64,000 nucleotides of DNA from Acidobacteriota bacterium (GCA_022826825.1 JAJDUD010000024.1:163084-227083); one strand, 5' to 3'. Counted from the stretch's first letter, positions 47,245 to 59,732 are shown. Translations and numbers: made by a program. Notes: generated by a model from the letters alone, not told the origin.

Positions 47245-48636
47245 TCAGCAGCCGAGCCCCTGGGACATCTGGGCGTAGCTGGTGAGGGGGACCGCGCACA
47301 TCCTGCTCCAGTCCGCCTTGTCGATGACGGGCCGGCGCAGCAACTCCAGCATCTCGTCGAACTTGCGGAGGGCGGCGCACCCCACCGCCTCGGGGTCCGC
47401 CGCCTGACGGTGTTTCGGCCAGGCCTGGTCACGAGCGTAGCGCCAGAACCTGCTGTCGTACCGGGAGCCGCAGGAATAGTGCCAGCCGACGAACAGGCCG
47501 TAGCGCAACATGTTGTCCACGAGAAACCGGTTGATCACCGGCGCGTCGCCCTCGAGATGCTCGGCCGGACGGTTCAGGCGTGTCTCGAGGACCATCCCGA
47601 TCTGGAACTGGGCGGACACGATCGCGGTGGCTTCGAGCGGCTCCATGAAGGCCGCCCGGTTGCCGATCCGGGCCACCGCGCCATCGTAGATCCGGCGGTG
47701 GACGAAGTTGGGAAACGGGATGACGGCGCGCGGCTCGAATTCCGTCACGCCGTCGGCCTCCAGGAACGCGTCGAAGTCCGTTTGGACTTCGTCCAGGCTG
47801 GAAACGTCGCGGTTGAAGATGTACCCACAGGAGGTGTGCGCTACGAGTGGGATGACGAAGATCCAGCCGTGGGGACGCGCCACCGCCCGGGTATAGGTGT
47901 GCTGCAGAACCGGACCGTCCGGTCCGTCCCCGATGATCGCGGGACAGCGCCGGATCACGGCGGTGTCGGTGGGGATGAACGGAATGTGGATGTGCCGGGC
48001 GGGATCGATTTCGCGGGGAAACCCGCGCGCATCGAAGACGAGGTCATAGCGCTCGGGGGCCCGGTCCTCGAAGGCCACTTCGGCGCCACCGTCCACCCGC
48101 TTGATCCCGGTCACGTTCGCGTCCACGTGGTGCGCACGCGTGCTTTCGTGCAGCAGGTCCGCCATCCGGTCGGCGGACAGGTGGTAGGCGTAGGAAACCT
48201 GCTGCGGCGTGAAGTAGTGGGTGAAGTCCCGATGGCGCCGTCCCCAACCCTCGAAAGCCACGCCGTACTTGCGGGTTCCCTTCAAGCGCTGTTGAACGGT
48301 CTCATGGGGCAGCTCCGTCAGTTGCTGCAGATGCTCGACCAGGCTCGGCCAGCTGCCTTCCCCGACCCCGATGACCGGAATGCGCGAGTCGTAGATGTGA
48401 TGCAGCTCGCGGTCGCCGCCGGGGGGAAGGCGCGTAACACTGGCCGCCGCCAGCGACCCCGCGGTTCCTCGCCCGACAACGGCGATCTTCCGGAGAGATT
48501 CGCTGCCCGTTCGGATCACCCTCGATGACTTCCACGGGGTTCGGTCGATGGTCCCCTGGGCGCGATGTCCGGATGTGCTGCGTGCGCCATTGCCGGGACG
48601 CGACACTAGCACCATCGCCTTGCGGGTCACGGACAT
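47245..48636 (-). CDS. flavin-dependent (tryptophan-type) halogenase family protein
   Basis: Track ORF of 463 aa (start uncertain). FAD motif VVGRGTAG. IGVGEGSWPSL (compare IGVGEATIPSL of Trp halogenases). RKYGVAFEGW lysine context. GWIFVIPL (variant of the WxWxIP motif). Confidence 0.7.
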   Translation of the reverse strand: MSVTRKAMVLVSRPGNGARSTSGHRAQGTIDRTPWKSSRVIRTGSESLRKIAVVGRGTAGSLAAASVTRLPPGGDRELHHIYDSRIPVIGVGEGSWPSLVEHLQQLTELPHETVQQRLKGTRKYGVAFEGWGRRHRDFTHYFTPQQVSYAYHLSADRMADLLHESTRAHHVDANVTGIKRVDGGAEVAFEDRAPERYDLVFDARGFPREIDPARHIHIPFIPTDTAVIRRCPAIIGDGPDGPVLQHTYTRAVARPHGWIFVIPLVAHTSCGYIFNRDVSSLDEVQTDFDAFLEADGVTEFEPRAVIPFPNFVHRRIYDGAVARIGNRAAFMEPLEATAIVSAQFQIGMVLETRLNRPAEHLEGDAPVINRFLVDNMLRYGLFVGWHYSCGSRYDSRFWRYARDQAWPKHRQAADPEAVGCAALRKFDEMLELLRRPVIDKADWSRMCAVPLTSYAQMSQGLGC

Positions 48637-48662
48637 GACCGGAGGACCGGCCGCCCCGTTCG

Positions 48663-48691
48663 TTGACGTTGGTACAGCGTCGTGTTACCCT
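48663..48691 (+). promoter_or_regulatory. candidate promoter of the RiPP precursor gene
   Basis: TTGACG (48663-48668), 17-nt spacer, TACCCT (48686-48691), about 60 nt upstream of the precursor ATG. An AAGGAGG ribosome-binding site sits at 48737-48743. Confidence 0.35.
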
Positions 48692-48750
48692 CGACACGGG
48701 AGTTGGCGTGGGCGTCGTTCGCCGGCGCGAGCAACCAAGGAGGAAACACC

Positions 48751-49002
48751 ATGAGAAACGGCGACGAGATGTTGCAGCAGATTGTCGAGAAGTCCGCCCT
48801 CGATGCGGACTTCCGGCGGCAGCTTCTGGCAGATCCGAAGAGCACCATTAGTGCGGAACTGGGGATCACGATTCCCGATTCCATGACCGTCAAGGTCCAC
48901 GAGAGCGACATGCAGACCGTGCATCTCGCGCTGCCCCCGGATCCGAACATCACCGAGGAGCAACTCGAAGCGATCTCGGCCGGCCTCTGCTGCTGCTGGT
49001 AG
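48751..49002 (+). CDS. NHLP (nitrile-hydratase-like leader peptide) family RiPP precursor, predicted core LCCCW
   Basis: ATG at 48751 with a strong RBS, 83 aa. IVEKSALDADFRRQLLADPKSTISAELGITIPDSMTVKVHESDMQTVHLALPP matches the NHLP leader. EEQLEAISAG matches the usual ...EELEAVAGG junction. It is followed by only LCCCW and a stop. Confidence 0.85.
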   Translation: MRNGDEMLQQIVEKSALDADFRRQLLADPKSTISAELGITIPDSMTVKVHESDMQTVHLALPPDPNITEEQLEAISAGLCCCW

Positions 49003-49042
49003 GTCCAACAACCGGTTCGTAGCCGGTCCCGACGGCAGTCGA

Positions 49043-49066
49043 CGGATACGGAGAGTTCCGTATCCG
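49043..49066. terminator. perfect 10-bp hairpin between the convergent precursor gene and the modification operon
   Basis: CGGATACGGA-GAGT-TCCGTATCCG followed by GGTTTCG. It lies between stop codons at 49002 (+) and 49189 (-). Confidence 0.5.
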
Positions 49067-49188
49067 GGTTTCGACGCCGGCTGAGCTGACCCCCCGGCCT
49101 CGCTCGGGGACGGGGAAGTCTGTGCTTGCCGCCGTCTCGCGGGGCGTCTCGAACTCAGGCGCGAGGTTGAGAGTGCCCGGACACCCGG

Positions 49189-50304
49189 CTAGGAGATCGC
49201 GCCGGAGAGCACCATGAACACGTAGGCCTTGGCCGCGCGAAGCTGGTTGCCGGACAGGACCAGCTTGACGTGGTGGATTCCACGTAGCAGGACATAGCGC
49301 CCGGACTTCGCAAAGAGCGTGGTCGGCCTCGAGACCCAGTCGGCAAGCGCGTCGAGCTTTTCCGGGAACACGAGCTCCTCGTGACCGAGGGCTTTGAGGA
49401 ACGGTTGCCAATCGGTGAGGCCGTCGAGCCAGTAGCGTGAGCCCTTCGTGTACCGCTGTTTGACGATGAGCGTCAGTCCGAGTGTGGGGCCGACGCCGTC
49501 TTCCAGTACGTCGATGTTCACGCCGCTTCTGACGATGTGCGCGCGCTCCTGGAAGCGGGAGATCACGGAGTGGACGGCCGGGAGTTCCCCCGGCCAACCC
49601 GTGTTCGCGAGATACGAACCTGCTTCCCGCTCCGACTGGAAACCCATGACCGCCAGGCGAATGGCGCGGGAGCGGGACGGGAACACACCGAACGAATCCA
49701 TGCGCGTATCTTCCGGTTGCGCCAGGTAGGCCCGTTCGACGTTGTCCCGCTCGGCGGGGGTCAATGCCCAGCCCACGCTGGAAGCGAGCGCGTCAACCAC
49801 CAGACGGACGTCCTTCGCCTGACCTCCGGCGCCGATGATCGGACGTTCCCCGGGCCGCAGGAAGATGCCGGGAAGTGAGTCCCCATCGTCCCGCCCAAGT
49901 CCGATGTCGAATTCCAGCATCAGTTTGCGGCCGACGATCTCGCGCAGCGGCGAGTTCTCGGCCTCCATCCGGCGGAACAGCCGCGCAATCACCCTCGCCG
50001 TCTCGTCTCCCTTCCCGCTCCGGACGCGCTCGGCGAAGAACGCCGCGGTCCGCGTCCCGCTCGCCAGGGAGACGCCCAGGTCCGCCCTTGGCGTCGCTTC
50101 ATGCAGCGGCAGTTCGAAGCCGAAGGGCAGGGCGCCCATCGTGATCGGGAGTTCGCCGGCGCGCTCGAGGATGAGCTCCCACTCCGGGTCGCCGATCAGA
50201 ACCGGCGAGACCCGGTTCCGGAAGTGGCGCAGCAGATCGCTCAGGGCGCCGCCTTCCACGGCGAGACGGTCCTCGGTGAGAGTGACTGCCTCGTCAAGTT
50301 CCAC
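49189..50304 (-). CDS. hypothetical protein, last gene of the RiPP operon (no motif recognised)
   Basis: 371 aa. GTG start with GGAGG 7 nt upstream, 10 nt after the cyclodehydratase stop. Alternating beta/alpha-looking segments ending ...HHVKLVLSGNQLRAAKAYVFMV. Confidence 0.7.
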   Translation of the reverse strand: MELDEAVTLTEDRLAVEGGALSDLLRHFRNRVSPVLIGDPEWELILERAGELPITMGALPFGFELPLHEATPRADLGVSLASGTRTAAFFAERVRSGKGDETARVIARLFRRMEAENSPLREIVGRKLMLEFDIGLGRDDGDSLPGIFLRPGERPIIGAGGQAKDVRLVVDALASSVGWALTPAERDNVERAYLAQPEDTRMDSFGVFPSRSRAIRLAVMGFQSEREAGSYLANTGWPGELPAVHSVISRFQERAHIVRSGVNIDVLEDGVGPTLGLTLIVKQRYTKGSRYWLDGLTDWQPFLKALGHEELVFPEKLDALADWVSRPTTLFAKSGRYVLLRGIHHVKLVLSGNQLRAAKAYVFMVLSGAIS

Positions 50305-50314
50305 CTCAGCCTCC

Positions 50315-52633
50315 TCACGCGATCACCGGTGCGGGGTTCAGGTCCGCTTCGGCAAGGGGATGTTCCAGGCGCCCCATGCGGACCGGCACGTCGTAAAGGC
50401 GCCCGGGAGCGAACCTTGCCCAGAAATGGCGCATGCCGGGCACGATGACCCGCACCACCGGCATCCCGATGTCGGGCCGGGTCTGGTCCAGCACCAGGAA
50501 CTCCATGCCCCTGGTTTCGACGAGCGAGCGGGCGTTCTCCACATCTTCCCGGGTGTCGGTCGTTTCGGACACCGGATACCGGGAGGCCTTCGAGGGAGGC
50601 TGGCCGGCGGCCGGCGTGAGCCAGGGACAATCGGCCAGCCGGCCCGTCTTCCACCACCGAAGCGCCAGCGGATCGTCAATCGTGGGCCCGCCGCCGCGCT
50701 TCCCCGGGTCCGGCAGCCAGGTAAGGCACTGGTTCAGTTCACAGAGCGCCCGGAGCGCCGCGATCCGCGGGTCGTCGTGGGCGCCGGCGCCGTAGATGAT
50801 GTCCTCGGTCGGCGCGGACGGCCGGCGCGAGAGCGCGACGAAGGTGGGAACGCCGATATCCGAGGTGACGTCGAGCATCCACAGCTCTCGCTCGCGGCCG
50901 GCGTAGTAGTCCGGGGCCGATGCCAGGTACGCGTCGTCGAAGCTCGACAGATCGACTGCGGGCGCGCGCAGCCGGTTGTACCACCAGATGGCGAACCCGT
51001 CGCGTTCCGCGAGTTCATAGAAACCCTGGAGGATCGCTTCCTCCAGCGTGTTCCCCGCGGCGCAGCCGTTGGAATCGGCGATCAGGTCCTGGGGCCCGCG
51101 CGCCTCGGCCGGCCTCGAATAGAGCATCGACGTCGGCAGATAGCGGTGCCGGCGCTGCGTCAGCGACCACACGGGGGTCCAGTCGATTGGCGCGTCGGGG
51201 TCGAGACGCGGGGGTACCACGTTGTAGGGATGGCCCTGCGCGTTGACGGCATCCGCATTGTCGAGCTGGCTGTCGCTGAACAGTTGCACGTCGTTGGGAT
51301 GGATCGCCTCGTCCTCCGCGGTGAACTCGCGGAACCGGCGCCGGACGCGGATTTCGTCACCCGAGCCGGCGCCCGAAACACGCTCGATCGCTTCGCACAG
51401 CGCGCTGACCCGGGATTGCTCCGCAGTGCTGCCCTTGCCGGCGCTCTTGCTGCGCAGGCTGCGCCGGAGCGAACTCAGGCTCCGGTAGCTCAGGGCAGGG
51501 TTGCTCCCGGCCCAATAGACGTGCAGCCAGGAGTCGCTCTCGTCCGTGGTACGCGTCAGCCAGGTCACCACTCCGCTCACCGGGCTCACCAGGTGGCGGT
51601 ACTTCGCCAGGGTGACCTCCGGCGGCACCGAGCGCGCGCCGCCGCTGTTGCGATGGGTTTTGGGGCTCGGTTGCAGAGCGAGTGGAACCGGCGGCCGGTC
51701 CGGGCGATAGAGCGCCGCGTCGCCGCAGGCCCGGCACTGCGGCCGGCGGCTTACCGGGTGCCGCGAGCTTCGAAAGGAACCGATGTCCATGGCGATCGCG
51801 TGGTCGTGGATCGGAGCCGCGTCAGACAGCACGATCCACTTGACCACCTCGGCCGCGATCAGCCCGCAGAGCGCTTCCAGCACGGCGGGCTGGGCGGCGA
51901 ACGGCCTGAAGGCAGCCTTCTCCCCCGCGGCGCTGCGCAGGAAACGGTGGACTTCCCGATGGCTGCCCAGCCGGTGCGCGAGACAGGCCCAGCAGGGTCC
52001 CCGGCGGTCCGCCCGAAAGACCGGGCCGAACAGCGGCTCCATGCCGCGGGGCCGCACCACGGTCCACGGCGCCCCCGCTTCGAGCCGGCGACCATTCGCC
52101 TCGCCAAGGCGCGCTTCGAGATAGTCGTCGCAGACCAGGACGGTGAGGTCCGGGTCCCGAGGCCCGACCGCCGCGCCGTTCGCTTCCAGATGCCGGGCGA
52201 ACCGGCCGTCGTCCCCTTCCACGGCGATGCGCGATTCCGCGAGCCGCTGCTCGACCCAGCGTGGCGAGGCGCCCAGCGACGACCAGTAGGCCGCCCGGCG
52301 CCGGTCCAGCGCGTGATCGGCGGAGACGACGTAGCCCCTCGCGGACAGCGAAGCCACGGCGGTGAGCACCTCTGCCGCGGAATGGGTCCCCTCGAGGGCC
52401 GTGACAATCTCGTCGGACGGATGGCGGCCGTCGAGCAGTGGCAGCAGCGTGCGATACAGCTCGCCGTGCAGGAGGGTGTTGAAGGACTCGGAGACCAGCA
52501 GGGTCTGCCGTTCGCCGAGGTCCCGGAACTCCAGGTGCGGGGCCAGCGCCGGAAGCCCGACGAGGCCCTGGTCGGCGGGAGTGGTGCGGGTCAGGATTCC
52601 CTGCCGGGAAACGCCGCCGGTCTGCGCTGGCAT
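50315..52633 (-). CDS. fused TOMM-type cyclodehydratase (E1-like/docking domain + YcaO domain)
   Basis: The ATG at 52633 (MPAQTGG...) lies within track ORF 50315..52783. N-terminal half has the GPCWACLAHRL and PQCRACG Cys pairs of the cyclo_dehyd_2 domain. C-terminal half is YcaO/SagD-like (SAGKGSTAEQSRVSALCEAIER..., ADSNGCAAGNTLEEAILQGFYELAERD, VVRVIVPGM). Confidence 0.85.
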   Translation of the reverse strand: MPAQTGGVSRQGILTRTTPADQGLVGLPALAPHLEFRDLGERQTLLVSESFNTLLHGELYRTLLPLLDGRHPSDEIVTALEGTHSAAEVLTAVASLSARGYVVSADHALDRRRAAYWSSLGASPRWVEQRLAESRIAVEGDDGRFARHLEANGAAVGPRDPDLTVLVCDDYLEARLGEANGRRLEAGAPWTVVRPRGMEPLFGPVFRADRRGPCWACLAHRLGSHREVHRFLRSAAGEKAAFRPFAAQPAVLEALCGLIAAEVVKWIVLSDAAPIHDHAIAMDIGSFRSSRHPVSRRPQCRACGDAALYRPDRPPVPLALQPSPKTHRNSGGARSVPPEVTLAKYRHLVSPVSGVVTWLTRTTDESDSWLHVYWAGSNPALSYRSLSSLRRSLRSKSAGKGSTAEQSRVSALCEAIERVSGAGSGDEIRVRRRFREFTAEDEAIHPNDVQLFSDSQLDNADAVNAQGHPYNVVPPRLDPDAPIDWTPVWSLTQRRHRYLPTSMLYSRPAEARGPQDLIADSNGCAAGNTLEEAILQGFYELAERDGFAIWWYNRLRAPAVDLSSFDDAYLASAPDYYAGRERELWMLDVTSDIGVPTFVALSRRPSAPTEDIIYGAGAHDDPRIAALRALCELNQCLTWLPDPGKRGGGPTIDDPLALRWWKTGRLADCPWLTPAAGQPPSKASRYPVSETTDTREDVENARSLVETRGMEFLVLDQTRPDIGMPVVRVIVPGMRHFWARFAPGRLYDVPVRMGRLEHPLAEADLNPAPVIA

Positions 52634-52665
52634 TCGGCTTTTCCGCGCTGGATCAGCCGGCCCCC

Positions 52666-53985
52666 TCAGGCGCGCGAACGGGAACCAACCTGCAAGACCT
52701 CGACGAGCCGCTCCAGCGCTTCGATGCAGAACGCGGACGTGACGGCTTCGGAGCCGTGCCCGATCTGCCCCACCGTGCCCCACTTCAGGGTCTGGTCACC
52801 GAACGCGAGAAGCTCCGGCCAACTGCCGTCCTCCTGCTGGGAACCCAGCAGTCCTTCCGCCTGGCGCTTCGCGTCGATGCCGTCGAGGCGTCCGATGTTG
52901 TGGAGCGCCGACACCGCCTGGGCGGTCCGCAGCACGTTGCCGAATCCGCCCCGGCCGTCCCCGAGTTCCAGGATGCGATCCGCGAGCACCGGCCGCAGTC
53001 GATCCAGGGCCGGCCGCGCCCGGAGCAGCGCGCGTGACACCGCATAGTAGATCGAGACCTTGTCGGGGTACCACTTGGACGAGCCCTCGACGCCTCCTTC
53101 GGCGATGAGCGCCTCCAGCCAGCGCTGGGCATCCCGGGTTTGTGGGTGGTCGCCAAGATAGGCGATGACGTTCGCATTGACGACGGGGTCGGCTTCGATG
53201 CGAAACGTCGACACCACGCTCGGCTCGTCCTCCGCGAGCACCCAGGTCATGAAACGGCCTTCCTCGTCGCGATTCGCCAGCATGGACGGCACGTTCCTCC
53301 CCAGCAGGATCCAGGGGTGGGTTCCGATGACCATGGAGCACAGCGCCGTGCTGTCGAGGTCCTGGGGGAGATGGCGGTAGTACCGCCAGAGTCCGGGATG
53401 TTCGATGGTGTCGGCCAGGTAGGCCCGGGTGGCGGCGCAGATGGCCCGCGCCCGCGGTTCAGCGCAACATTCGAGGGCGAGCACGCAAAAGGCCGAAACG
53501 AAGGGCGGTCTTTCGAAATGCCGTGGAACGTCCGGATTGCCGACGTTGAACCGGATGCAGTGCCAGGCTCCGTTTTCGTCGATCGTGGATTCCAGGAAAT
53601 CGAGACCCCGGCGGATGCCCGCCCGACCCGCGTCGGCGAGTGCCTCGGGGGTGGCCGCGTCCTTTCCGGCCCTCGCCCGTCCGGGGGCGGGTGGGCGGAG
53701 CGGCGGGGCGGGGTCGTGGAGCGTCTTCTTGAGAAACTCCAGTGACCCGGCGCCCGTCCGGGCCGCGCTGCGCTCGGCCGCGCTGAGTCTGGGGGGCGGC
53801 GGCAACACCACGTGCGTTGTGGCGTAGCTCTCTTCGTGTACGTGGATCGCGTGATCATCGGGGAGCCTCACGCCGAATTCCGCTTCGACCGTTTCCTTTG
53901 GCGCCCGAAGCAGGCGTTCGCGAAAGTCGCGGTCCCGGGAGGCTCTCGACACGAGGACATCGGCGGCCTCCAGCGGTTTCTTCAT
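52666..53985 (-). CDS. NHLP-leader-like domain fused to a squalene-cyclase/prenyltransferase-repeat (alpha/alpha toroid) domain
   Basis: ATG at 53985 (RBS GAGGG), 439 aa. Residues 1-65 align without gaps to the precursor leader (DFR.RLL..PK.T..AE.G...PD....VHE....H..LPP.P). The rest carries QW-type repeats (LDFLESTIDENGAWH, RDEEGRFMTW, GDGRGGFG, LLGSQQEDGSWPE). Confidence 0.8.
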   Translation of the reverse strand: MKKPLEAADVLVSRASRDRDFRERLLRAPKETVEAEFGVRLPDDHAIHVHEESYATTHVVLPPPPRLSAAERSAARTGAGSLEFLKKTLHDPAPPLRPPAPGRARAGKDAATPEALADAGRAGIRRGLDFLESTIDENGAWHCIRFNVGNPDVPRHFERPPFVSAFCVLALECCAEPRARAICAATRAYLADTIEHPGLWRYYRHLPQDLDSTALCSMVIGTHPWILLGRNVPSMLANRDEEGRFMTWVLAEDEPSVVSTFRIEADPVVNANVIAYLGDHPQTRDAQRWLEALIAEGGVEGSSKWYPDKVSIYYAVSRALLRARPALDRLRPVLADRILELGDGRGGFGNVLRTAQAVSALHNIGRLDGIDAKRQAEGLLGSQQEDGSWPELLAFGDQTLKWGTVGQIGHGSEAVTSAFCIEALERLVEVLQVGSRSRA

Positions 53986-54038
53986 GGACGGCCCTCGTTC
54001 GGGTGGGGTTTCATCAACTGCACCGGGGCGCCTTCGGA

Positions 54039-56984
54039 TCAGGCGATCTGCCTCTTGACCAGTTCGCGGAATACCCCGTCCACCTCCATGAGTTCCCTGA
54101 AGGAGCCGCACTGGACCACTCTTCCGGCCCGCAGGACATAGATGCGGTCGGCCTGTTCCAGCGTGGACAGGCGGTGGGCGATGACGAGCCGCGTGGAGGT
54201 CAGGGCCGCGAGGTTCCGCATGACCATGGCCTGGCTTTCGTTGTCCAGCCAGTTGGTCGCTTCGTCGAACAGCATGATCCGCGGGCTGCCGATCACCGAA
54301 CGGGCGATCGTGACGCGCTGGCTCTCGCCGCCGGAAAGGACCGCCCCGGTGGTGCCCACCATGGTCATCAGGCCCATCGGCATGGCCTTGATTTCGTCTT
54401 CGACCCTGGCGGCGCGGAGCGCCTTCCAAACCTCCTCGCTCGTCACCTGATCGTGGTGGCTGACCACGTTGTCCCACAGATCCTGGGGATGCAGACGAAC
54501 GGACTGGGGGACGGCGCCGATGCGCCGGCGGACCTGCTTCAGGTTCAGGTGCCGCAGGTCACGTCCGTCGTAGTACACCGCGCCGGCGGTCGGCCGGTGG
54601 ACCCCCAGCGCAAGCTGGAACAGGGTGCTCTTGCCGGCGCCCGACGCGCCGGCGATCGCGATGAACTCACCGGGGCGGGCGTGAATCGTGACGTCGTCGA
54701 GAATCAGGGGTCCGTCGTCGTCATAGCGGAAGGAAATGCGGTCGAACAGGATGTCGCCGCCCAGGTGTTCCACCGGCTCGCCCTCGACATCGGTCTCGGG
54801 GACGGCGGCGAGCAGCGGACGCATCTGCTCGAACGCCGGCAGCGTGGCGGCAATGGCGCCGACGGAATCCCCGAGCCGCGCCACCGAGGCCTGGAACGTG
54901 AGAAAGACCGTGTAGACCACCAGGAAATCGCCGACCGGCACGTTGCGGTCCCCCGTCGTCACCACCGCGAAGAGCAGCGCTCCGGCGGCCAACAGGGGGA
55001 GTGCGGCGCCGAACGCGCGGGAGTGTCCTTCGAGCGCGCCGAGGTCGAGTTCCGCGCGTTTCTGCTCCCGATAGTCCCGCGCCCACATCGCGAAGGCCGA
55101 TCCTTCCGCGCTCTCGATGCGCAGCTTGGCGATGCCCCCCACGATCTGAAACAGCCGGGCCGCTACGCGCCGGGCGGCGCTGATCATCCGCCCATGGGGT
55201 GCGGTCTGGCGCCACCCGAGGACCAGCGTGATCAGCAGCGACGCCAGGCTGAAGACGAGCGCGATGGTCCCCAGGCGGGCGTCGTAGAAGAAGACCAGGC
55301 CCAGGACCGGAAGCAGGAAAATGCAGGACAGCAGGCTGTCCGCGACCGCTCCCTGCAAGCCGTCGCGCAGATTCTGGAACGTCATTCCCGACATGGCCAG
55401 ATCGCTGGACGGAAGGGGGCGCAAAACGCTCGGGGGCAGGCGCATGAGGCGGTCCCAGAAGGCGGCCTCGACCCGGGAAGCTCCCCGGCCCTCGAGCCGC
55501 ATCATCGCCGAGCTCTGGAACAGGTGCAGCAGGGCGCCGAGCAGGCCGAACCCCGCCACCGTCGCGGCCACGGCATAGAGCGCTCCCGCGTTTCCGCCTG
55601 CCGCCACGTGATTCGCGACGAATCCAAGCGCGAGCGCCGGAACCAGTTTGATCAGTCCGCCCGGCAGCCCGGCCGCCGTTAGCCGCGCCAGGTCCCCGGC
55701 CGATCCGTGGAGGGCGATCCTGAAGAGGTCCGCCGGCTGCACGCGCCGGGATGGCAGTGGCCGATAGAAGACCCAGGCTTCCTCTCCCAGGGCCCCGGCG
55801 CGGTCCGCGCCCAGCCGGACGCTGCGCTTGCTCGCCGGATCGATCTCCCGGTAACGCCCGAACGTTCCCGGCAGGAGCGCCACGGGCCGGCCGTCCTCGG
55901 CGCGGAACGCCAGCATCGCGTTGCTGTCGCCGCGCCACCAGTCGCCCTCGGCCTTGAACCGCACGCGGCGGGCCCGCACCCCCGACGCGTCGAGGATGTC
56001 CACGAGGCCGACCGGGGCATCGGCCGACACTCCCGAACGCACGGGAATCCTGAAGTCGATTCCCTCGTGGCGGCCGATGATTTCGAGCGCCTCCGCCAGC
56101 GCCGTGACTTCGGCACTCGCATCCCGGTCCAGCGGCAGGTCATAGATGTTGAAGAGCCGCTGCCGCGCCGTCTTTTCGGCCGCGCGCCGGCTCGTGGTCT
56201 GGGCGCGTTCGAGATTCGCCTCGTCGACGGTCGCCAGCCGCCGGTTATGGCGTTCCAGGGCGAAAGCAGTCCGGTGGAAGGAAGCGAGCCCGGAAAGCAG
56301 GGCGCCCCGCTGCGCCAGCGTTTCGGTCGATTCGCCGGAAAGGGTGGCCTCGCCGAACACGGTCAGCCAACTGGTCCGCGTCAGGGGCACCGGGACTGCG
56401 GATGCGCCGCCGCTCTCCGCCCGCTCCGCCGGATCGGCGATGCCCATGTAGAGGGTCGCTCCCCGCGGGGGTTCGGATACCCACACCACCGAGCGGCGCA
56501 CCGACAGCGTACCGGGCGTCAGGGTTTGCGTCAGGCCCGGTTCCGCAAGCGCGGTCGCCCGCGGCAGGCGGCTCGCAAAACGCGAGAGGGTGTCCGTGAC
56601 GGCGGACAGCCAGGCGTCTGTCTGTTCCGCCAGCTCCGCCGGATGGACCTCCGACAACAACGACGCCGGGAGGCGCCTCAGAAGGGTGCCGGGCGAGCCC
56701 TTGGCGATCACGCTGAGCCGGGTGTCGTCGTCACCCCCGCCCTCGTCGGGCGGGACGCCCGGCAACAGGCAGCCGGACTCGCGCCGAAGCAGGTGCTGCG
56801 GCGCCGCGCGCTCGACGCCGCCCTGGAATTCCACCAGGAACAGGTTGACCGCACCCCGATCGATGAACCAGACACTGTCCGCGTCGTCCAGCTGCACCGG
56901 CAGGTTGCCGGTGCAGGGCACGGGCGCACCGCAGCGGGCGGCGAGTGCCGCCATGGACGTGGTTCTCGGTCCCGCGTCGTTCAT
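54039..56984 (-). CDS. NHLM-type bacteriocin export ABC transporter, permease/ATPase subunit without an active peptidase domain (ABC2)
   Basis: 981 aa. Long N-terminal extension of about 470 aa, then a six-TM exporter domain. Walker A GASGAGKST, signature LSGGESQR, Walker B IMLFDEAT. The stop/start overlaps the upstream gene (ATGA). Confidence 0.8.
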   Translation of the reverse strand: MNDAGPRTTSMAALAARCGAPVPCTGNLPVQLDDADSVWFIDRGAVNLFLVEFQGGVERAAPQHLLRRESGCLLPGVPPDEGGGDDDTRLSVIAKGSPGTLLRRLPASLLSEVHPAELAEQTDAWLSAVTDTLSRFASRLPRATALAEPGLTQTLTPGTLSVRRSVVWVSEPPRGATLYMGIADPAERAESGGASAVPVPLTRTSWLTVFGEATLSGESTETLAQRGALLSGLASFHRTAFALERHNRRLATVDEANLERAQTTSRRAAEKTARQRLFNIYDLPLDRDASAEVTALAEALEIIGRHEGIDFRIPVRSGVSADAPVGLVDILDASGVRARRVRFKAEGDWWRGDSNAMLAFRAEDGRPVALLPGTFGRYREIDPASKRSVRLGADRAGALGEEAWVFYRPLPSRRVQPADLFRIALHGSAGDLARLTAAGLPGGLIKLVPALALGFVANHVAAGGNAGALYAVAATVAGFGLLGALLHLFQSSAMMRLEGRGASRVEAAFWDRLMRLPPSVLRPLPSSDLAMSGMTFQNLRDGLQGAVADSLLSCIFLLPVLGLVFFYDARLGTIALVFSLASLLITLVLGWRQTAPHGRMISAARRVAARLFQIVGGIAKLRIESAEGSAFAMWARDYREQKRAELDLGALEGHSRAFGAALPLLAAGALLFAVVTTGDRNVPVGDFLVVYTVFLTFQASVARLGDSVGAIAATLPAFEQMRPLLAAVPETDVEGEPVEHLGGDILFDRISFRYDDDGPLILDDVTIHARPGEFIAIAGASGAGKSTLFQLALGVHRPTAGAVYYDGRDLRHLNLKQVRRRIGAVPQSVRLHPQDLWDNVVSHHDQVTSEEVWKALRAARVEDEIKAMPMGLMTMVGTTGAVLSGGESQRVTIARSVIGSPRIMLFDEATNWLDNESQAMVMRNLAALTSTRLVIAHRLSTLEQADRIYVLRAGRVVQCGSFRELMEVDGVFRELVKRQIA

Positions 56985-59194
56985 CGGCCTGACTTGACCA
57001 GCCTGTAATACGTGCCGTCCCGGTCGGCGATCAGATCGTCGTGCGTGCCGCGCTGCACCTGGGCGCCCTTGTCGAGCACGATGATCTCGTCGCAGTCCCG
57101 CACCGTACTCAGCCGGTGCGCCACGATCAGGCAGGTGACGCCGCGGCGCCGCAGGGCATCGTCGACGGTTTCCTCGGTGGCGGCGTCGAGCGCACTGGTC
57201 GCCTCGTCCAGAACGAGCACCGTCGGGTTCCCCACCAGGGCCCGCGCGATCTCCAGGCGCTGCCGCTGGCCGCCGCTGAAGTTCACGCCGCCTTCCTCGA
57301 CGAGAGTCGCGTATCCGTGCGGCCGGAGCAGGATCTCGTCATGGATCGCGGCGTCTCGGGTCGCGGCGCTGATGACTTCATCGGGAACGGCCGGGTTCCA
57401 CAAGGTGATGTTGTCGCGGAGGGTCGCGGAAAAGAGAATGGCGTCCTGATCCACCATGGAAATCGAGCGTCGCAGCACTTCGGCGGGAATCTCGTCGCGC
57501 GCGCGGCCATCGAAGCGGATCTGGCCCGACCAGGGCTGACAGATTCCGGAAACGAGACGCGCCAGAGTCGACTTGCCGGACCCGCTCGGCCCCACCACGG
57601 CAACCCGCTGCCCCGGCTCGATCGCCAGGTTGAAGTCCTTGATCAGGGGTTGCCGGCTCTTGTTGTAGCCGAAGGTGACGTTGCGCAATTCAAGCCTGCC
57701 GGCGAGCTGCAGCCGGCCGTCCAAGGTGGCGATGGACTCCGATTCGGGACTCCGGCGGGTGAAGGCGGGGTCCTTCGCCGTCTTCGAGACGTCTTCCAGT
57801 CGCTGCAGATCGGTCTCCAGCGCGTGGCGTTTCTCGGCGAACTCGAGGAAACGCCCGACCGGCGTCAGGAACATCTCGGCCAGGATGAAGAACCCGACGA
57901 GGGACCCCAGGGTCATTTCGCCGGCGATGACCAGGCTCCCGCCGACGCCCAGGATCGCCGCGGCGCGCAGGGCGCCGATCAGGCCCGGAAACGCCGTGTT
58001 GAGGGCCCCGAGTTCGGAGTACTGCTGGCGCGCGCGCAGTTCGCGCGCCTGCTGCCCGCTCCAGCGCGAGAAGAACCGGTCGTCCGCGCCGGTCATGCGC
58101 AGGTTGTCCGCGCTACTCAACATCTGCATGCCGACGCCGATCAGCAATCCCTGTTCGCGCCTCATCGCCTGGCTTCGGACGGTCCGCAGCGCGCCCAGGA
58201 AGTGGACTCCCGTCGCGTGCAGGAGGGCCAGCAACGCCACGACCAGGGTGAGCGTCACGTCGTACGCCAGCATGGCGATGACGAGCACCGCGCTCATCGC
58301 CATGTCGATGACGAGCACCAGGAACTGCTCCGTCAGGTTCTTGGCGATTCTGTCGATGGACGAGACCCGGTCCGTCAGATCGCCTACCAGGCGGTGCTCG
58401 AAGAATGCCACCGGCAAACGCAGCAGCCGCGACAGGCCGCGGTTGAAGCCGCTGACCGAAATCCGTACCGCCAGCCGCTTCAGGAACCGGTGCTTCAGCA
58501 GCGACAGGACGTACACCAGGACGCCGCCGCCCAGCAGCGCCGCCACCAGTCCGCCCCAGGGCCCGTGGTTGGCCACCAGGTCGTCCACGAACACCCCGAC
58601 CGACGCGGGGACCACCAGGGCAATCAGCGTCAGCATGAGCGCGCAGGCCATCACTCCGGTGAGCACGCTCCACGATCCGGCAAGCAGGCCCCGCAACTGC
58701 TCGAACAGACCAGGCCGTTCGCCACCGGGACGGAAGCCGGGGCCGCGCTGGAATCGCAGCGCGATCCCACTGAAACTCTTGCTGAACTCCTCGGCGGAGA
58801 GTCTGCGCCGCCCCGTGGCCGGGTCATTCAGATAGAAACTGCGGCCATCGAACCCTTCGAGGACCAGGAAGTGGCTGAACTGCCAGAACAGGATCAGGGG
58901 TAAAGGCAGCTTCGGGAGCTGGTCCGCGCGAACGCTGAGTCCGCCCACTTCGAGCCCGTAGTGCCGGGCGGCGCGCGCGATGCTGGCGGCGCTGCTTCCG
59001 TCCCGGCTCACCTCGCATTTCTCCCGCAGTTGGGTGAGCGGCACCCAGCGGCCGAAGTAACCCAGTACGCTCCCGAGGCAGGCGGCCCCGCATTCCGATG
59101 CGTGCATCTGCAGCACAACGGGGGTGGTTACCCGTCGTTTCGGGAAGCCCGGCGCCGCCTTGGCGCCGTCGCCCCGCGAAGGGCCGCTCCGCAT
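56981..59194 (-). CDS. NHLM-type bacteriocin export ABC transporter with N-terminal C39 peptidase domain (ABC1)
   Basis: 737 aa. C39 catalytic context QMHASECGAACLG and later FSHFLVLEG...YLNDP. Walker A GPSGSGKST, signature FSGGQRQR. Confidence 0.85.
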   Translation of the reverse strand: MRSGPSRGDGAKAAPGFPKRRVTTPVVLQMHASECGAACLGSVLGYFGRWVPLTQLREKCEVSRDGSSAASIARAARHYGLEVGGLSVRADQLPKLPLPLILFWQFSHFLVLEGFDGRSFYLNDPATGRRRLSAEEFSKSFSGIALRFQRGPGFRPGGERPGLFEQLRGLLAGSWSVLTGVMACALMLTLIALVVPASVGVFVDDLVANHGPWGGLVAALLGGGVLVYVLSLLKHRFLKRLAVRISVSGFNRGLSRLLRLPVAFFEHRLVGDLTDRVSSIDRIAKNLTEQFLVLVIDMAMSAVLVIAMLAYDVTLTLVVALLALLHATGVHFLGALRTVRSQAMRREQGLLIGVGMQMLSSADNLRMTGADDRFFSRWSGQQARELRARQQYSELGALNTAFPGLIGALRAAAILGVGGSLVIAGEMTLGSLVGFFILAEMFLTPVGRFLEFAEKRHALETDLQRLEDVSKTAKDPAFTRRSPESESIATLDGRLQLAGRLELRNVTFGYNKSRQPLIKDFNLAIEPGQRVAVVGPSGSGKSTLARLVSGICQPWSGQIRFDGRARDEIPAEVLRRSISMVDQDAILFSATLRDNITLWNPAVPDEVISAATRDAAIHDEILLRPHGYATLVEEGGVNFSGGQRQRLEIARALVGNPTVLVLDEATSALDAATEETVDDALRRRGVTCLIVAHRLSTVRDCDEIIVLDKGAQVQRGTHDDLIADRDGTYYRLVKSGR

Positions 59195-59195
59195 G

Positions 59196-59732
59196 CTAGG
59201 CGGGCCTCATTCGCAATAGGGCGAGGGGCGCCTGCCTGCCGAGTTCGATGACGAGCCGGCATTCCTGACCCGCCCGGGGAGCAAGGGCGAGGTTCTCGTC
59301 GATCGCGATGCGGACGCGGTACGCGGACACGGGCGCGACGCCCGCGAGCGCCGCCAGTCCGCCGGGCAGCGGGACGGCGGAAATGGTGGTGACCTCTCCG
59401 GCGAGCGTCTCTGCTTCGCCGTCGGCGACGGTCAGTTCGACTCGCGCCGGCATTCCGGCCTTGATGTGCGGCGCGATGCCGGGTGCGATCCGGACGAGGG
59501 CCTCGAGGGACCGATTCCCACCGGGCTCGACCACGACCCCGTCCACGGCAAGGCTGCGCGACACGGCGCCGAGGAAGAGCCAGCCGGTGAGACCCAGCAA
59601 GAGCAGAGCGATGGCGCCGACGAGCAGCCGTTCCCGCGGCGTGGAGACAGTCAGCAGCCGGTCGAGTTGCTCACGCTCTTCCTTTGCTTCGGCGACGGTG
59701 TCGTGAAAGGAGCCAAAGGGGTCGTTGAACAC
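59196..59732 (-). CDS. HlyD-family/NHLM secretion adaptor-like protein, unusually short
   Basis: 178 aa. GTG start with AGGAGG upstream. Single TM helix (LLVGAIALLLLGLTGWLFLGAV), then a beta-barrel-like segment (GMPARVELTVADGEAETLAGEVTTIS). No long coiled-coil hairpin. Confidence 0.65.
   Translation of the reverse strand: MFNDPFGSFHDTVAEAKEEREQLDRLLTVSTPRERLLVGAIALLLLGLTGWLFLGAVSRSLAVDGVVVEPGGNRSLEALVRIAPGIAPHIKAGMPARVELTVADGEAETLAGEVTTISAVPLPGGLAALAGVAPVSAYRVRIAIDENLALAPRAGQECRLVIELGRQAPLALLRMRPA

What the first reader, a model, noticed from the sequence alone, without database searches (positions are those of the whole stretch)
47245..59732. NHLP-leader RiPP gene cluster with a non-canonical enzyme set
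Seen in sequence:
- Nine adjacent genes lie between pyrG/kdsC and pilT.
- The minus-strand operon runs hlyD-like, ABC1 (C39), ABC2, leader-fused toroid protein, fused E1-like/YcaO cyclodehydratase, then a 371-aa orphan. Gaps are tiny or overlapping.
- A convergent plus-strand NHLP precursor follows, and then a halogenase-like flavoprotein.

Established knowledge:
- NHLP precursors, TOMM cyclodehydratases and the ABC1/ABC2/HlyD export trio are a known RiPP chassis.
- As I recall the families: TIGR03793, TIGR03882 plus TIGR03604, and TIGR03796/03797/03794.

Inference:
- The tailoring complement fits no RiPP class I know. It has no SagB-type dehydrogenase, no LanM/LanB and no radical SAM enzyme.
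- Instead it has a Trp-halogenase-like enzyme, an unclassifiable protein and a terpene-cyclase/prenyltransferase-fold protein carrying its own leader.
- This may therefore encode an undescribed small azoline-containing peptide family.
Basis: partly seen in the sequence, partly recalled or inferred. Interest (0 to 1): 0.9.

Follow-up and report, generated by a model that had tools for sequence, protein, structure and literature searches.

The report
Known sponge-symbiont srp peptide gene cluster
This is a copy of the already described "srp" gene cluster of marine-sponge bacteria, which makes a tiny brominated, thiazoline-containing peptide; its two uncharacterised genes look like a prenyltransferase and a terpene cyclase, so the still-unknown final product may carry a cyclised lipid.

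Summary
The genes are real and at the stated coordinates. There are eight, not nine: a short HlyD-like gene, ABC1 with a C39 peptidase, ABC2, a leader-fused toroid protein, a fused E1-like/YcaO, a 371-aa orphan, a plus-strand NHLP precursor and a flavin halogenase.

The cluster is not an undescribed RiPP class. It belongs to the published srp family (sponge-derived RiPP proteusins; Nguyen et al., JACS 2021).
- The precursor is 86% identical to published SrpE and has the identical core LCCCW.
- The halogenase is 79% identical to the characterised Trp-6-brominase SrpI, including Lys84.
- At least 337 related loci occur in species-representative genomes. The 80 inspected are MAGs from at least six phyla, many with sponge-style isolate names. 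LCCCW is invariant in every intact precursor of this type recovered.

What I add concerns the two genes of unknown function.
- The orphan has no sequence-family match but is predicted to fold as an ABBA prenyltransferase barrel.
- The toroid is a class II terpene-cyclase-like domain with an invariant DLDST acid motif. It is fused to a copy of the precursor's own leader.
- The same two genes sit side by side in a distant NHLP cluster that has no YcaO.

The mature srp product is therefore probably prenylated and cyclised as well. Fused prenyltransferase-cyclase maturases on RiPPs have been known since 2024.

The parts
47245..48519 (-). Flavin-dependent peptidyl Trp halogenase, ortholog of the brominase SrpI. 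424 aa from a GTG start at 48519; the open frame runs on to an ATG at 48636.
   Evidence: Pfam Trp_halogenase at 146 bits. 79% identity over 427 columns to the published SrpI sequence, with the alignment starting at residue 40 of the long ORF. The catalytic Lys84 context KGTRKYG, Tyr102/Tyr110 and the GxGxxG motif are conserved. Solved Trp halogenases match at E 6e-23 and weaker.
48751..49002 (+). SrpE-type NHLP (proteusin) precursor, 83 aa: a 78-aa leader ending AISAG, then the core LCCCW. It is the only plus-strand gene and is preceded by AAGGAGG.
   Evidence: TIGR03793 at 69 bits, above the 50.9 cut-off. 86% identity to published SrpE with an identical core. The ribosome-binding site is read directly from the sequence. 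LCCCW is invariant in every intact precursor of this type recovered from related loci.
49189..50304 (-). 371-aa 'orphan': a predicted ABBA (PT-barrel) prenyltransferase-like protein, 10 nt downstream of the YcaO gene.
   Evidence: No Pfam, NCBIfam or PDB sequence match. AlphaFold2 model with pLDDT 87.7 and pTM 0.87, showing five alpha-alpha-beta-beta repeats. All 50 Foldseek PDB hits with E<=0.001 are ABBA aromatic prenyltransferases, with E from 8e-6 and TM 0.37-0.49. The family has 544 representatives at 50% clustering. It is present in all 80 related genome loci by construction of the scan.
50315..52633 (-). Fused leader-binding (winged-helix/E1-like) plus YcaO cyclodehydratase, the SrpC counterpart, 772 aa.
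   Evidence: TIGR03882 at 132.8 bits, TIGR03604 at 261 bits, Pfam YcaO at 318.6 bits and PF21084 winged helix. The 772-aa gene call comes from an identical public contig.
52666..53985 (-). 439-aa fusion of an NHLP leader-like domain (residues 1-78, nt 53752-53985), a Pro-rich linker and a class II terpene-cyclase-like alpha/alpha toroid (residues ~106-439).
   Evidence: TIGR03793 at 47.4 bits. The N-terminus aligns colinearly with the whole precursor leader at 36% identity, E 1e-19. Foldseek's best hits are class II cyclases: drimenol synthase, MstE, small SHC-like 8pak/8paj and SHC, with E from 3e-7 and TM up to 0.62. A profile of the toroid domain hits 8paj_A at E 1.8e-4 and the SHC QW-repeat region at E 0.007.
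53347..53361 (-). DLDST motif (residues 209-213 of the toroid protein), the candidate general-acid motif of a class II cyclase.
   Evidence: Translation confirmed. D209, L210, D211 and S212 are invariant in 28 homologs. The motif aligns to PADADST of the class II cyclase 8paj. A 43%-identical relative has DLDDT, the canonical DxDD. DxDTT is the acid motif of the top structural hit AsDMS, where D333N is inactive (PMC9128629).
54039..56984 (-). ABC2: permease/ATPase without a peptidase domain. It has a ~290-aa N-terminal extension of unknown type.
   Evidence: Best hit TIGR03797 at 665.8 bits (cut-off 709.4), covering residues 295-980. ABC_membrane and ABC_tran domains are present. The N-terminal 285 aa have no NCBIfam match.
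56981..59194 (-). ABC1: C39 peptidase-containing ABC exporter (PCAT), the predicted leader-cleaving exporter.
   Evidence: Best hit TIGR03796 at 838.3 bits (cut-off 853.3). Peptidase_C39 at 115.7 bits. The ...ASECGAACL... cysteine motif is seen in the translation.
59196..59732 (-). Short (178 aa) HlyD-like membrane protein, conserved with the cluster.
   Evidence: Only the N-terminal ~55 residues match TIGR03794 (23.4 bits against a cut-off of 156.2). A full-length copy is conserved at 54-87% identity in 45 of 80 related loci, so it is not a local truncation.

Best explanation
The locus is a member of the srp (sponge-derived RiPP proteusin) gene-cluster family, carried here by an Acidobacteriota (Vicinamibacteria-like) bacterium.

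Steps shown biochemically for close orthologs in the literature:
1. The 83-aa NHLP precursor is bound through its leader.
2. The fused E1-like/YcaO enzyme uses ATP to cyclodehydrate the three Cys of the core LCCCW to thiazolines.
3. The flavin-dependent halogenase brominates C6 of the C-terminal Trp in a leader-dependent way.

Steps inferred here from fold and gene context:
4. The 371-aa protein is a highly divergent ABBA-type prenyltransferase. It attaches an isoprenoid to the core, most plausibly to the Trp indole.
5. The toroid protein is a class II terpene cyclase. Asp211 of its DLDST motif protonates the appended prenyl chain and cyclises it.
6. The cyclase's N-terminal copy of the NHLP leader probably docks it onto leader-binding partners such as the YcaO enzyme.

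Step inferred from family membership:
7. The C39 domain of ABC1 cuts after AISAG, and ABC1, ABC2 and the short HlyD-like protein export the product.

My confidence that this is an srp cluster is about 0.95. My confidence in the prenylation and cyclisation steps is about 0.5-0.55.
For: Identity as srp:
- Identical core LCCCW and 86% identity to published SrpE.
- 79% identity to published SrpI, with Lys84 conserved.
- The literature describes SrpC thiazoline formation and SrpI bromination (PMC10858898; PMC10286304).
- The YcaO family models are passed.

Distribution:
- 337 related loci in species-representative genomes. The best 80 share 72-82% orphan identity and come from Acidobacteriota, Alpha- and Gammaproteobacteria, Gemmatimonadota, Binatia, Opitutales and Rhodothermales MAGs, many with sponge-style isolate names.
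- Gene order is conserved.

Host:
- The adjacent PyrG is 96% identical to that of Vicinamibacteria/Acidobacteria MAGs carrying the cluster at the same place.

Prenyltransferase reading of the orphan:
- A confident model with five alpha-alpha-beta-beta repeats.
- The top 50 PDB fold matches are exclusively ABBA prenyltransferases.
- Conserved K/R/H/Y residues alternate on the predicted strands: RGIHHxK and AKAYxF.
- Distant family members always sit in NHLP plus C39-ABC clusters, not always with a YcaO. Their cores are rich in Trp/Tyr, often C-terminal, for example SDNDFDPW and YSWEDFKSGKGVLDW.

Cyclase reading of the toroid:
- Fold matches to class II cyclases.
- A profile hit to 8paj that aligns DLDST with DADST.
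- A relative carrying DLDDT.

Coupling of the two genes:
- The toroid is full-length in 68 of 80 loci, whereas the halogenase is in 27 of 80.
- In L131/L132, a distant YcaO-free NHLP cluster, a toroid homolog (HMM E 1.7e-67) lies directly upstream of the orphan homolog, abutting its start.

Precedent:
- NctPC is an ABBA prenyltransferase fused to an MstE-like cyclase. It geranylgeranylates and then cyclises on a RiPP Trp (review PMC13290415).
- MppC is a leader-dependent ABBA prenyltransferase, encoded next to a terpene synthase and an SrpI-like brominase (PMC12715784; PMC11791876).
Against: - The orphan has no sequence-level link to any prenyltransferase.
- Its fold matches have only moderate TM scores (0.37-0.49) and high rmsd.
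- Sister clusters keep YcaO followed by the orphan but lack the toroid. Several of their cores have no aromatic residue (RCCC, LCCCG, LCCCT, LSCCL), so Trp cannot be the universal acceptor.
- The toroid model is only moderately confident (pLDDT 70.8; one of five models folded).
- The motif is DLDST, not the canonical DxDD.
- No prenyl-diphosphate synthase is encoded in the cluster.
- No prenylated srp product is reported in any paper I could read.
- The published work obtained thiazolines and bromination without these two proteins.
- I could not read the original srp paper or the 2024 paper on polycyclic isoprenoid RiPPs, so I do not know what they say about these genes.
Confidence: 0.9

Rival explanations
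1. The cluster makes only the brominated tris-thiazoline pentapeptide. The orphan and the toroid are not prenyl-handling enzymes but accessory proteins, for example a scaffold or chaperone that makes the poorly active YcaO efficient, or self-protection proteins.
For: SrpC alone is reported as poorly active, giving partially modified mixtures (PMC10286304). The orphan lies directly downstream of the YcaO gene in 53 of 80 loci. It stays next to YcaO in sister clusters whose cores lack aromatic residues. It has no sequence similarity to prenyltransferases.
Against: Distant orphan homologs occur in NHLP clusters with no YcaO at all (L131, L134). The PT-barrel fold is, to my knowledge, known only from prenyltransferases, and all 50 top fold hits are such enzymes. 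The toroid keeps an invariant acid motif, which a passive scaffold would not need.
Confidence: 0.3
2. The leader on the toroid protein is a secretion and cleavage signal. The C39-ABC exporter would cut after ...RTG and export the cyclase, which would then act outside the cytoplasm or be a cargo protein itself.
For: The N-terminal 78 residues align with the full precursor leader and end in a small-residue-Gly site at the same position as AISAG. The residues after that site (AASLEFLRKT) are conserved.
Against: The second Leu of the L(X)4L motif, which the literature implicates in recognition by SrpI and by C39-type proteases (PMC10858898), is an invariant Arg in the toroid proteins. Position -2 is Thr rather than Gly, Ala or Ser. 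A folded 360-aa toroid is an unlikely PCAT cargo (my own knowledge). The toroid homolog in L131 has no leader domain and is still paired with the orphan homolog.
Confidence: 0.1
3. The toroid is a zinc-dependent, protein-prenyltransferase-beta-like or LanC-like enzyme that acts on a Cys thiol of the CCCW (CaaX-like) C-terminus.
For: The fold is an alpha/alpha toroid. Rab geranylgeranyltransferase beta subunits appear among weaker matches: Foldseek E 0.007-0.04 and profile E 0.056. The core ends in Cys-x-x-x.
Against: Class II cyclases score four to five orders of magnitude better. No LanC structure appears among the 50 matches listed. No Asp/Cys/His zinc triad was evident by eye in the alignment; I did not search for one systematically. 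All three Cys are consumed as thiazolines in the published pathway.
Confidence: 0.04
4. One reading: a new, undescribed RiPP class.
For: No RiPP class-defining enzyme other than YcaO is present. Two genes have no family annotation.
Against: The same precursor core and orthologous enzymes are already published as srp. Other groups have noted the widespread occurrence (bioRxiv 10.1101/2023.06.09.544420; PMC9426513; PMC11832590).
Confidence: 0.02

Closest known systems
srp biosynthetic gene cluster (sponge-derived RiPP proteusins; SrpE/SrpC/SrpI; Nguyen et al., JACS 2021, doi 10.1021/jacs.1c03474)
   Same: An NHLP precursor with the identical core LCCCW and AISAG boundary (86% identity). An SrpI-type brominase (79% identity, Lys84 kept). 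A fused YcaO cyclodehydratase and C39-ABC export genes. The same distribution across bacterial phyla, in MAGs many of which have sponge-style names.
   Different: Nothing essential; this is another copy, in an Acidobacteriota host. The leader motif here is NITEEQL, the majority form among the loci I recovered, where the published SrpE has NLTEEQL. I could not compare the published SrpC sequence or gene map because the original paper is not held.
NctPC/ChrPC-type prenyltransferase-terpene cyclase maturases of RiPPs (Hubrich et al., Chem 2024, as summarised in PMC13290415)
   Same: An ABBA-fold prenyltransferase of low similarity to cyanobactin enzymes, combined with an MstE-like monodomain class II cyclase, acting on a Trp of a long-leader RiPP.
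   Different: Here the two activities are separate genes rather than one fused protein. The cyclase is instead fused to an NHLP leader-like domain. The core is a 5-residue thiazoline peptide. Activity is only predicted.
mpp cluster of Moorena producens (MppE/MppM/MppC/MppD/MppI)
   Same: A long structured leader, a leader-dependent ABBA prenyltransferase acting on Trp, a terpene synthase gene and an SrpI-like Trp brominase in one RiPP cluster.
   Different: mpp has a Nif11 leader and a LanM-made lanthionine ring instead of YcaO thiazolines. MppC is recognisable as an ABBA enzyme, whereas the srp orphan matches no Pfam or NCBIfam model.
MstE and AsDMS/SsDMS (class II terpene cyclases with a DxDTT-type acid motif)
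   Same: They are the best structural matches of the toroid domain. The acid motif sits at the equivalent place. MstE cyclises a prenyl chain already attached to an aromatic ring.
   Different: Only 15-18% identity. The motif is DLDST. The N-terminal NHLP domain is unique to the srp protein. The presumed substrate is a peptide.
TOMM/linear azol(in)e peptide systems (SagBCD type)
   Same: E1-like plus YcaO cyclodehydration of Cys in a leader-bearing precursor.
   Different: No SagB-type FMN dehydrogenase is present, so azolines rather than azoles are expected. The leader is NHLP-type, the core is very short and the tailoring set differs.

Membership tests
srp BGC family | SrpE-type NHLP precursor with core LCCCW after an AISAG boundary | tested here: met
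   86% identity to the published SrpE with an identical core.
srp BGC family | SrpI-type leader-dependent peptidyl Trp-6-brominase with catalytic Lys84 | tested here: met
   79% identity to the published SrpI. The KGTRKYG context and Tyr102/Tyr110 are conserved. Bromide specificity itself was not testable.
srp BGC family | SrpC-type YcaO that converts the three Cys to thiazolines | tested here: inconclusive
   A fused E1-like/YcaO passes TIGR03882 and TIGR03604 and lies in the cluster. No published SrpC sequence was available for comparison, and activity is not testable here.
srp BGC family | Occurrence in marine-sponge microbiomes across bacterial phyla | tested here: inconclusive
   The closest relatives are MAGs whose isolate names look like sponge-project labels (SB06xx_bin, Spongia_Bin9, RHO1-3_bin) from at least six phyla. 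The identical contig is in metagenome assemblies ERZ23495329 and ERZ23491282. Their sponge origin is my reading of the labels, not a checked fact.
NHLP/proteusin precursor (TIGR03793) | Score above the curated cut-off of the leader model | tested here: met
   69 bits against 50.9.
Azoline-forming TOMM cyclodehydratase | YcaO domain (TIGR03604/PF02624) plus leader-binding E1-like domain (TIGR03882) | tested here: met
   261 bits against 219.25; 132.8 bits against 36.9; Pfam YcaO at 318.6 bits.
TOMM (thiazole/oxazole) systems | SagB-type FMN dehydrogenase for azole formation | tested here: not met
   No nitroreductase/SagB-type match in any of the eight proteins.
NHLP bacteriocin export trio (TIGR03796/03797/03794 equivalogs) | Scores above the curated equivalog cut-offs | tested here: not met
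   These are the best hits, but all fall below the cut-offs: 838.3 against 853.3, 665.8 against 709.4 and 23.4 against 156.2. The HlyD-like protein has only 178 aa. The genes are the same kind of exporter but not strict equivalogs.
Flavin-dependent Trp halogenases (PF04820) | Pfam model above its gathering score, GxGxxG motif and catalytic Lys | tested here: met
   146.4 bits against 21. 30 solved halogenases match at E<=1e-3. Motifs are seen in the alignment.
ABBA aromatic prenyltransferases | PT-barrel fold: ten antiparallel strands in five alpha-alpha-beta-beta repeats | tested here: met
   AlphaFold2 model with pLDDT 87.7 and five alpha-alpha-beta-beta units. The top 50 Foldseek PDB hits are all ABBA prenyltransferases. 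This rests on a predicted structure only.
ABBA aromatic prenyltransferases | Match to a sequence model of a known prenyltransferase family | tested here: not met
   No Pfam or NCBIfam hit for the window protein or for ten distant relatives. No PDB sequence hit even with a 35-sequence profile.
ABBA aromatic prenyltransferases | Prenyl-diphosphate-dependent alkylation of an acceptor | not testable with these tools
   Needs an enzyme assay or co-expression with mass spectrometry.
Class II terpene cyclases | alpha/alpha-toroid (beta-domain-type) fold | tested here: met
   Foldseek hits to AsDMS, MstE, 8pak/8paj, SsDMS and SHC, with E from 3e-7 to 6e-4 and TM up to 0.62. The model is of moderate confidence, pLDDT 70.8.
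Class II terpene cyclases | DxDD-type general-acid motif (variants such as DxDTT) | tested here: met
   The invariant DLDST aligns to DADST of cyclase 8paj. A 43%-identical relative has DLDDT. The role of the motif is documented in PMC9128629.
Class II terpene cyclases | Pfam/NCBIfam squalene-cyclase models above their cut-offs | tested here: not met
   SQHop_cyclase_C scores 17.8 against 26.1, and TIGR01787 scores 16 against 322.7.

The most novel reading that the evidence does not exclude
The most widely shared RiPP cluster of sponge microbiomes may encode a peptide-terpenoid hybrid rather than just a brominated tris-thiazoline pentapeptide. On this reading:
- Its conserved 371-aa protein founds a large family of ABBA prenyltransferases dedicated to NHLP peptides. 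The family has 544 clusters at 50% identity and is invisible to Pfam.
- Its cyclase is a natural leader-fused maturase: a class II terpene cyclase carrying a copy of the substrate's own NHLP leader as a docking domain.

In the literature I could read these genes are only called 'genes of unknown function'.
Probability: 0.35. Interest if true: 0.65.

Novelty: already known. Interest (0 to 1): 0.35.

Why it matters
As a cluster it is ordinary: one more copy of a published and very common sponge-symbiont RiPP locus.

Its value lies in the final product, which the authors who study it still call cryptic.
- The two conserved genes that nobody has assigned are more constant in the family than the halogenase that led to its discovery. 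The toroid is full-length in 68 of 80 loci and the halogenase in 27 of 80.
- If they are a prenyltransferase and a terpene cyclase, the true product and its ecological role become directly testable by co-expression with a prenyl donor.
- A large hidden family of peptide prenyltransferases, and a naturally leader-fused cyclase, would become available as biocatalysts.

Tried and rejected
- Sequence searches of the orphan found no link to a characterised family. I tried Pfam, NCBIfam, PDB by single sequence and PDB by a 35-sequence profile.
- A single-sequence PDB search of the toroid domain found nothing useful. Only a profile of the isolated domain reached the cyclases.
- A profile of the full-length toroid was dominated by nitrile hydratase hits to the leader domain.
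- Two family alignments were too diverse for the locus scanner.
- The promoter and terminator scan was uninformative: 0 promoters, and terminators at chance level.
- Four papers could not be read: the original srp paper (PMC8780398), the mpr paper (PMC9746716), Hubrich et al. 2024 (PMC11484575) and the MstE paper (PMC7613056). A sponge peptide review had no srp text.
- I considered and rejected LanC-like and protein-prenyltransferase-beta readings of the toroid, because the fold matches are much weaker and no zinc triad was evident.
- I considered the orphan as an obligate YcaO partner. I rejected this because distant members occur in clusters without a YcaO.
Full report
**1. Observation**

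The region 47245-59732 contains eight genes.

Seven lie on the minus strand:
- a 178-aa HlyD-like protein (59196-59732)
- ABC1 with a C39 peptidase domain (56981-59194)
- ABC2 (54039-56984)
- a 439-aa protein with an NHLP-like N-terminus and a toroid domain (52666-53985)
- a 772-aa fused E1-like/YcaO protein (50315-52633)
- a 371-aa protein with no family match (49189-50304)
- a Trp-halogenase-like flavoprotein (47245-48519, or to 48636 if the upstream ATG is used)

The eighth gene is the 83-aa precursor at 48751-49002 on the plus strand. It follows an AAGGAGG ribosome-binding site.

- Above their cut-offs: TIGR03793 (69 bits), TIGR03882 (132.8), TIGR03604 (261), Pfam YcaO (318.6), Peptidase_C39 (115.7) and Trp_halogenase (146.4).
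- Below NCBI's equivalog cut-offs, though best hits: the three exporter models (838 against 853, 666 against 709, 23 against 156).

The HlyD-like gene is a conserved short form, not a full membrane-fusion protein. Gene spacing is tight. The flanks are pyrG and a PilT-like ATPase.

**2. What it is**

The core of the precursor, LCCCW, is the core of SrpE, the substrate of the published srp (sponge-derived RiPP proteusin) cluster.
[quoted passage not shown] It also states that SrpI brominates the C-terminal Trp in a leader-dependent way.
- PMC10286304 says the same and prints the SrpE leader and SrpI sequences.

Direct comparison with those sequences:
- Precursor: 71 of 83 residues identical (86%) to SrpE, with an identical AISAG|LCCCW end.
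- Halogenase: 339 of 427 identical (79%) to SrpI. The alignment starts at a GTG 39 codons into the long ORF. The catalytic Lys84 context and the self-brominated Tyr102/Tyr110 are kept.

The cluster type has been in print since 2021 and has been noted by several other groups.

**3. Distribution and host**

The 371-aa protein has about 950 close cluster representatives at 73-91% identity. They are named from Acidobacteria, Alpha- and Gammaproteobacteria MAGs. The toroid protein has about 1,080, also from Gemmatimonadota, Deltaproteobacteria and Nitrospinae. Several are annotated 'nitrile hydratase subunit alpha'.

A scan of one genome per species found 337 loci. The best 80 (72-82% identity) are MAGs from at least six phyla, many with sponge-style isolate names.

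Across these 80 loci the order is: short HlyD, ABC1, ABC2, toroid, YcaO, orphan, then the precursor on the opposite strand. Some loci have an extra gene between the toroid and the YcaO gene. Full-length copies within the flanks:

| Gene | Loci (of 80) |
|---|---|
| Toroid | 68 |
| YcaO | 64 |
| ABC2 | 64 |
| Precursor | 56 |
| Halogenase | 27 |

The core LCCCW is invariant in every intact precursor of this type that I recovered.

The PyrG next to the cluster is 96% identical to that of Vicinamibacteria/Acidobacteria MAGs, which carry the cluster at the same chromosomal place. The host is therefore an Acidobacteriota bacterium. The identical contig occurs in two public metagenome assemblies.

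**4. The two unassigned genes**

*The orphan.*
- It has no Pfam, NCBIfam or PDB sequence match, even with a 35-sequence profile or for distant relatives.
- It belongs to a family of 544 representatives at 50% clustering.
- AlphaFold2 on 31 homologs gives a confident model (pLDDT 87.7, pTM 0.87) made of five alpha-alpha-beta-beta repeats.
- All 50 Foldseek matches to the PDB with E<=0.001 are ABBA aromatic prenyltransferases: EpzP, FamD1, AmbP1/3, NphB, CloQ, 6-DMATS, PriB, TleC, LimF, CymD and DMATS1. E starts at 8e-6 and TM is 0.37-0.49.
- Conserved basic and aromatic residues alternate on the last strands (RGIHHxK, AKAYxF). There is also a conserved FGFE and LEYD. From memory, this resembles the diphosphate-binding residues of such barrels.

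*The toroid.*
- Its model is less confident (pLDDT 70.8).
- Its best PDB matches are class II terpene cyclases: drimenol synthase AsDMS, MstE, the small cyclases 8pak/8paj, SsDMS and SHC. E starts at 3e-7 and TM reaches 0.62.
- A profile of the isolated domain hits 8paj_A at E 1.8e-4. That alignment places the invariant DLDST (window 53347-53361) on DADST of the cyclase. The profile also hits the QW-repeat region of SHC at E 0.007.
- DxDTT is the acid motif of AsDMS, where mutating the middle Asp abolishes cyclisation (PMC9128629).

**5. Independent support from gene context**

Distant members of the orphan family (about 27% identity) always lie in NHLP-precursor plus C39-ABC clusters, but not always with a YcaO. 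Their precursor cores are short and rich in Trp/Tyr, often at the C-terminus: SDNDFDPW, YSWEDFKSGKGVLDW, CGDCGLGNY, YNWEALAD and WAPTNDSY.

In one such YcaO-free cluster (L131/L132), the gene directly upstream of the orphan homolog, abutting its start, is a leaderless homolog of the toroid domain.
- It scores E 1.7e-67 against the toroid-domain HMM and is 43% identical.
- Its motif is the canonical DLDDT.

The toroid-orphan pair therefore recurs outside the srp family, together with a C-terminal Trp. That is what a prenyltransferase-cyclase pair predicts.

There is precedent.
- NctPC is an ABBA prenyltransferase fused to an MstE-like cyclase. It geranylgeranylates a RiPP Trp and then cyclises the chain (review PMC13290415; the original Hubrich et al. 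2024 paper is not held).
- The mpp cluster combines a leader-dependent ABBA prenyltransferase, a terpene synthase and an SrpI-like brominase.

**6. Caveats**

Sister clusters in metagenomes keep YcaO followed by the orphan, with the orphan at 40-52% identity, but have no toroid within 8 kb. Their cores include RCCC, RCCCCW, LCCCGI, LCCCG, LCCCT and LSCCL. Several of these lack any aromatic residue. The acceptor of the orphan therefore cannot always be Trp, and a role tied to the thiazoline peptide itself remains possible.

No prenyl-diphosphate synthase is encoded in the window cluster. The published reconstitutions obtained thiazolines and bromination without these proteins.

I put the prenylation/cyclisation model at about 0.5-0.55.

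**7. The leader on the cyclase**

Residues 1-78 of the toroid protein align colinearly with the whole precursor leader (36% identity, E 1e-19). They end in RTG where the precursor has SAG.

The second Leu of the L(X)4L motif is an invariant Arg in the toroid proteins. The literature shows this motif to be what SrpI binds, and implicates it in recognition by C39-type proteases. The structured N-terminal part of the leader is conserved. Work on a related YcaO and on a LanM shows that those enzymes bind the structured part of NHLPs (PMC12455567; PMC12537861).

I therefore infer that this domain docks the cyclase onto leader-binding partners rather than serving as a cleavage or export signal. This is inference only.

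**8. Comparison and novelty**

Membership of the srp family is met on the two features I could test by sequence, the precursor and the halogenase. It is consistent on the rest.

The cluster is already known. The final product is still described as cryptic, and the other genes as 'several genes of unknown function'. The reading of these genes as a Pfam-invisible ABBA prenyltransferase, plus a class II cyclase fused to a leader copy, may be new. I could not check the two papers most likely to contain it.

**9. Verdict**

- Observation: largely confirmed.
- Interpretation as a new class: not supported.
- Interest: modest (0.35). It rests on a testable prediction about the true product of a very widespread symbiont cluster.

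Noticed in passing
L084-L107, L123, L124, L129 (metagenome loci; e.g. L092 5574-9092): A sister family of NHLP clusters keeps the YcaO-then-orphan pair (orphan 40-52% identical) but has other tiny Cys-rich cores: RCCC, RCCCCW, LCCCGI, LCCCGF, LCCCG, LCCCT, LCCCL, LSCCL, FCCCI. No toroid lies within 8 kb. Some loci (L087, L088, L089, L093) carry two orphan paralogs.
   Followed up: partly
L028 5244-7640 (+); L092 3038-5485 (+): Many srp variants and the sister clusters carry an extra ~800-aa gene upstream of the YcaO gene; in L028 it lies between the toroid and the YcaO gene. It is a membrane fatty-acid-desaturase domain fused to a GlnE-like nucleotidyltransferase region. It is absent from the window. 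Its role is unknown; I speculate it could oxidise azolines.
   Followed up: partly
L131 8592-11122 (same genes in L132): A distant NHLP cluster without a YcaO. It has a precursor with core SDNDFDPW, then a leaderless toroid homolog with a DLDDT motif abutting the start of an orphan homolog, plus a JmjC/cupin gene and C39-ABC exporters.
   Followed up: yes
window 59196-59732 (-): The HlyD-like gene encodes only 178 aa: a membrane anchor plus a short beta region, without the usual long coiled coil. This short form is conserved at 54-87% identity in 45 related loci, so it is a family trait and not a truncation.
   Followed up: partly
window 56100-56984 (-), N-terminal ~290 aa of ABC2: ABC2 has a long N-terminal extension upstream of the TIGR03797-matching part. 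The extension has no NCBIfam match.
   Followed up: partly
window 52666-53985 (-) and homologs P0144, P0193, P0229: Public annotation names several of these cyclase-like proteins 'nitrile hydratase subunit alpha', because of the 78-aa leader-like domain. This looks like a systematic misannotation.
   Followed up: no
window 45468-47132 (pyrG) versus 47245-59732; L004-L006, L014, L036: Among related Acidobacteriota MAGs, PyrG is 96% identical but the cluster proteins only 72-95%. Across phyla, cluster proteins other than the short HlyD-like one remain at or above about 60% identical. This pattern fits horizontal spread of a strongly constrained cluster. GC also dips to 0.64-0.66 around 48-49.5 kb, against about 0.70 in the flanks.
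   Followed up: partly
L033, L039, L049, L050, L062, L064, L069, L076 (Gemmatimonadota/Longimicrobiales loci): In these loci no separate LCCCW precursor was found next to the orphan, and only a fragment of the halogenase appears at the far edge of the locus. The cluster seems to be rearranged in this lineage.
   Followed up: no
L028 16296-17717 (-); L092 9194-12513: Variant and sister clusters add other tailoring genes. L028 has a cytochrome P450 and a LolA-like protein. L092 has a SAM methyltransferase, a FAD-binding oxidase and an MMPL transporter.
   Followed up: no
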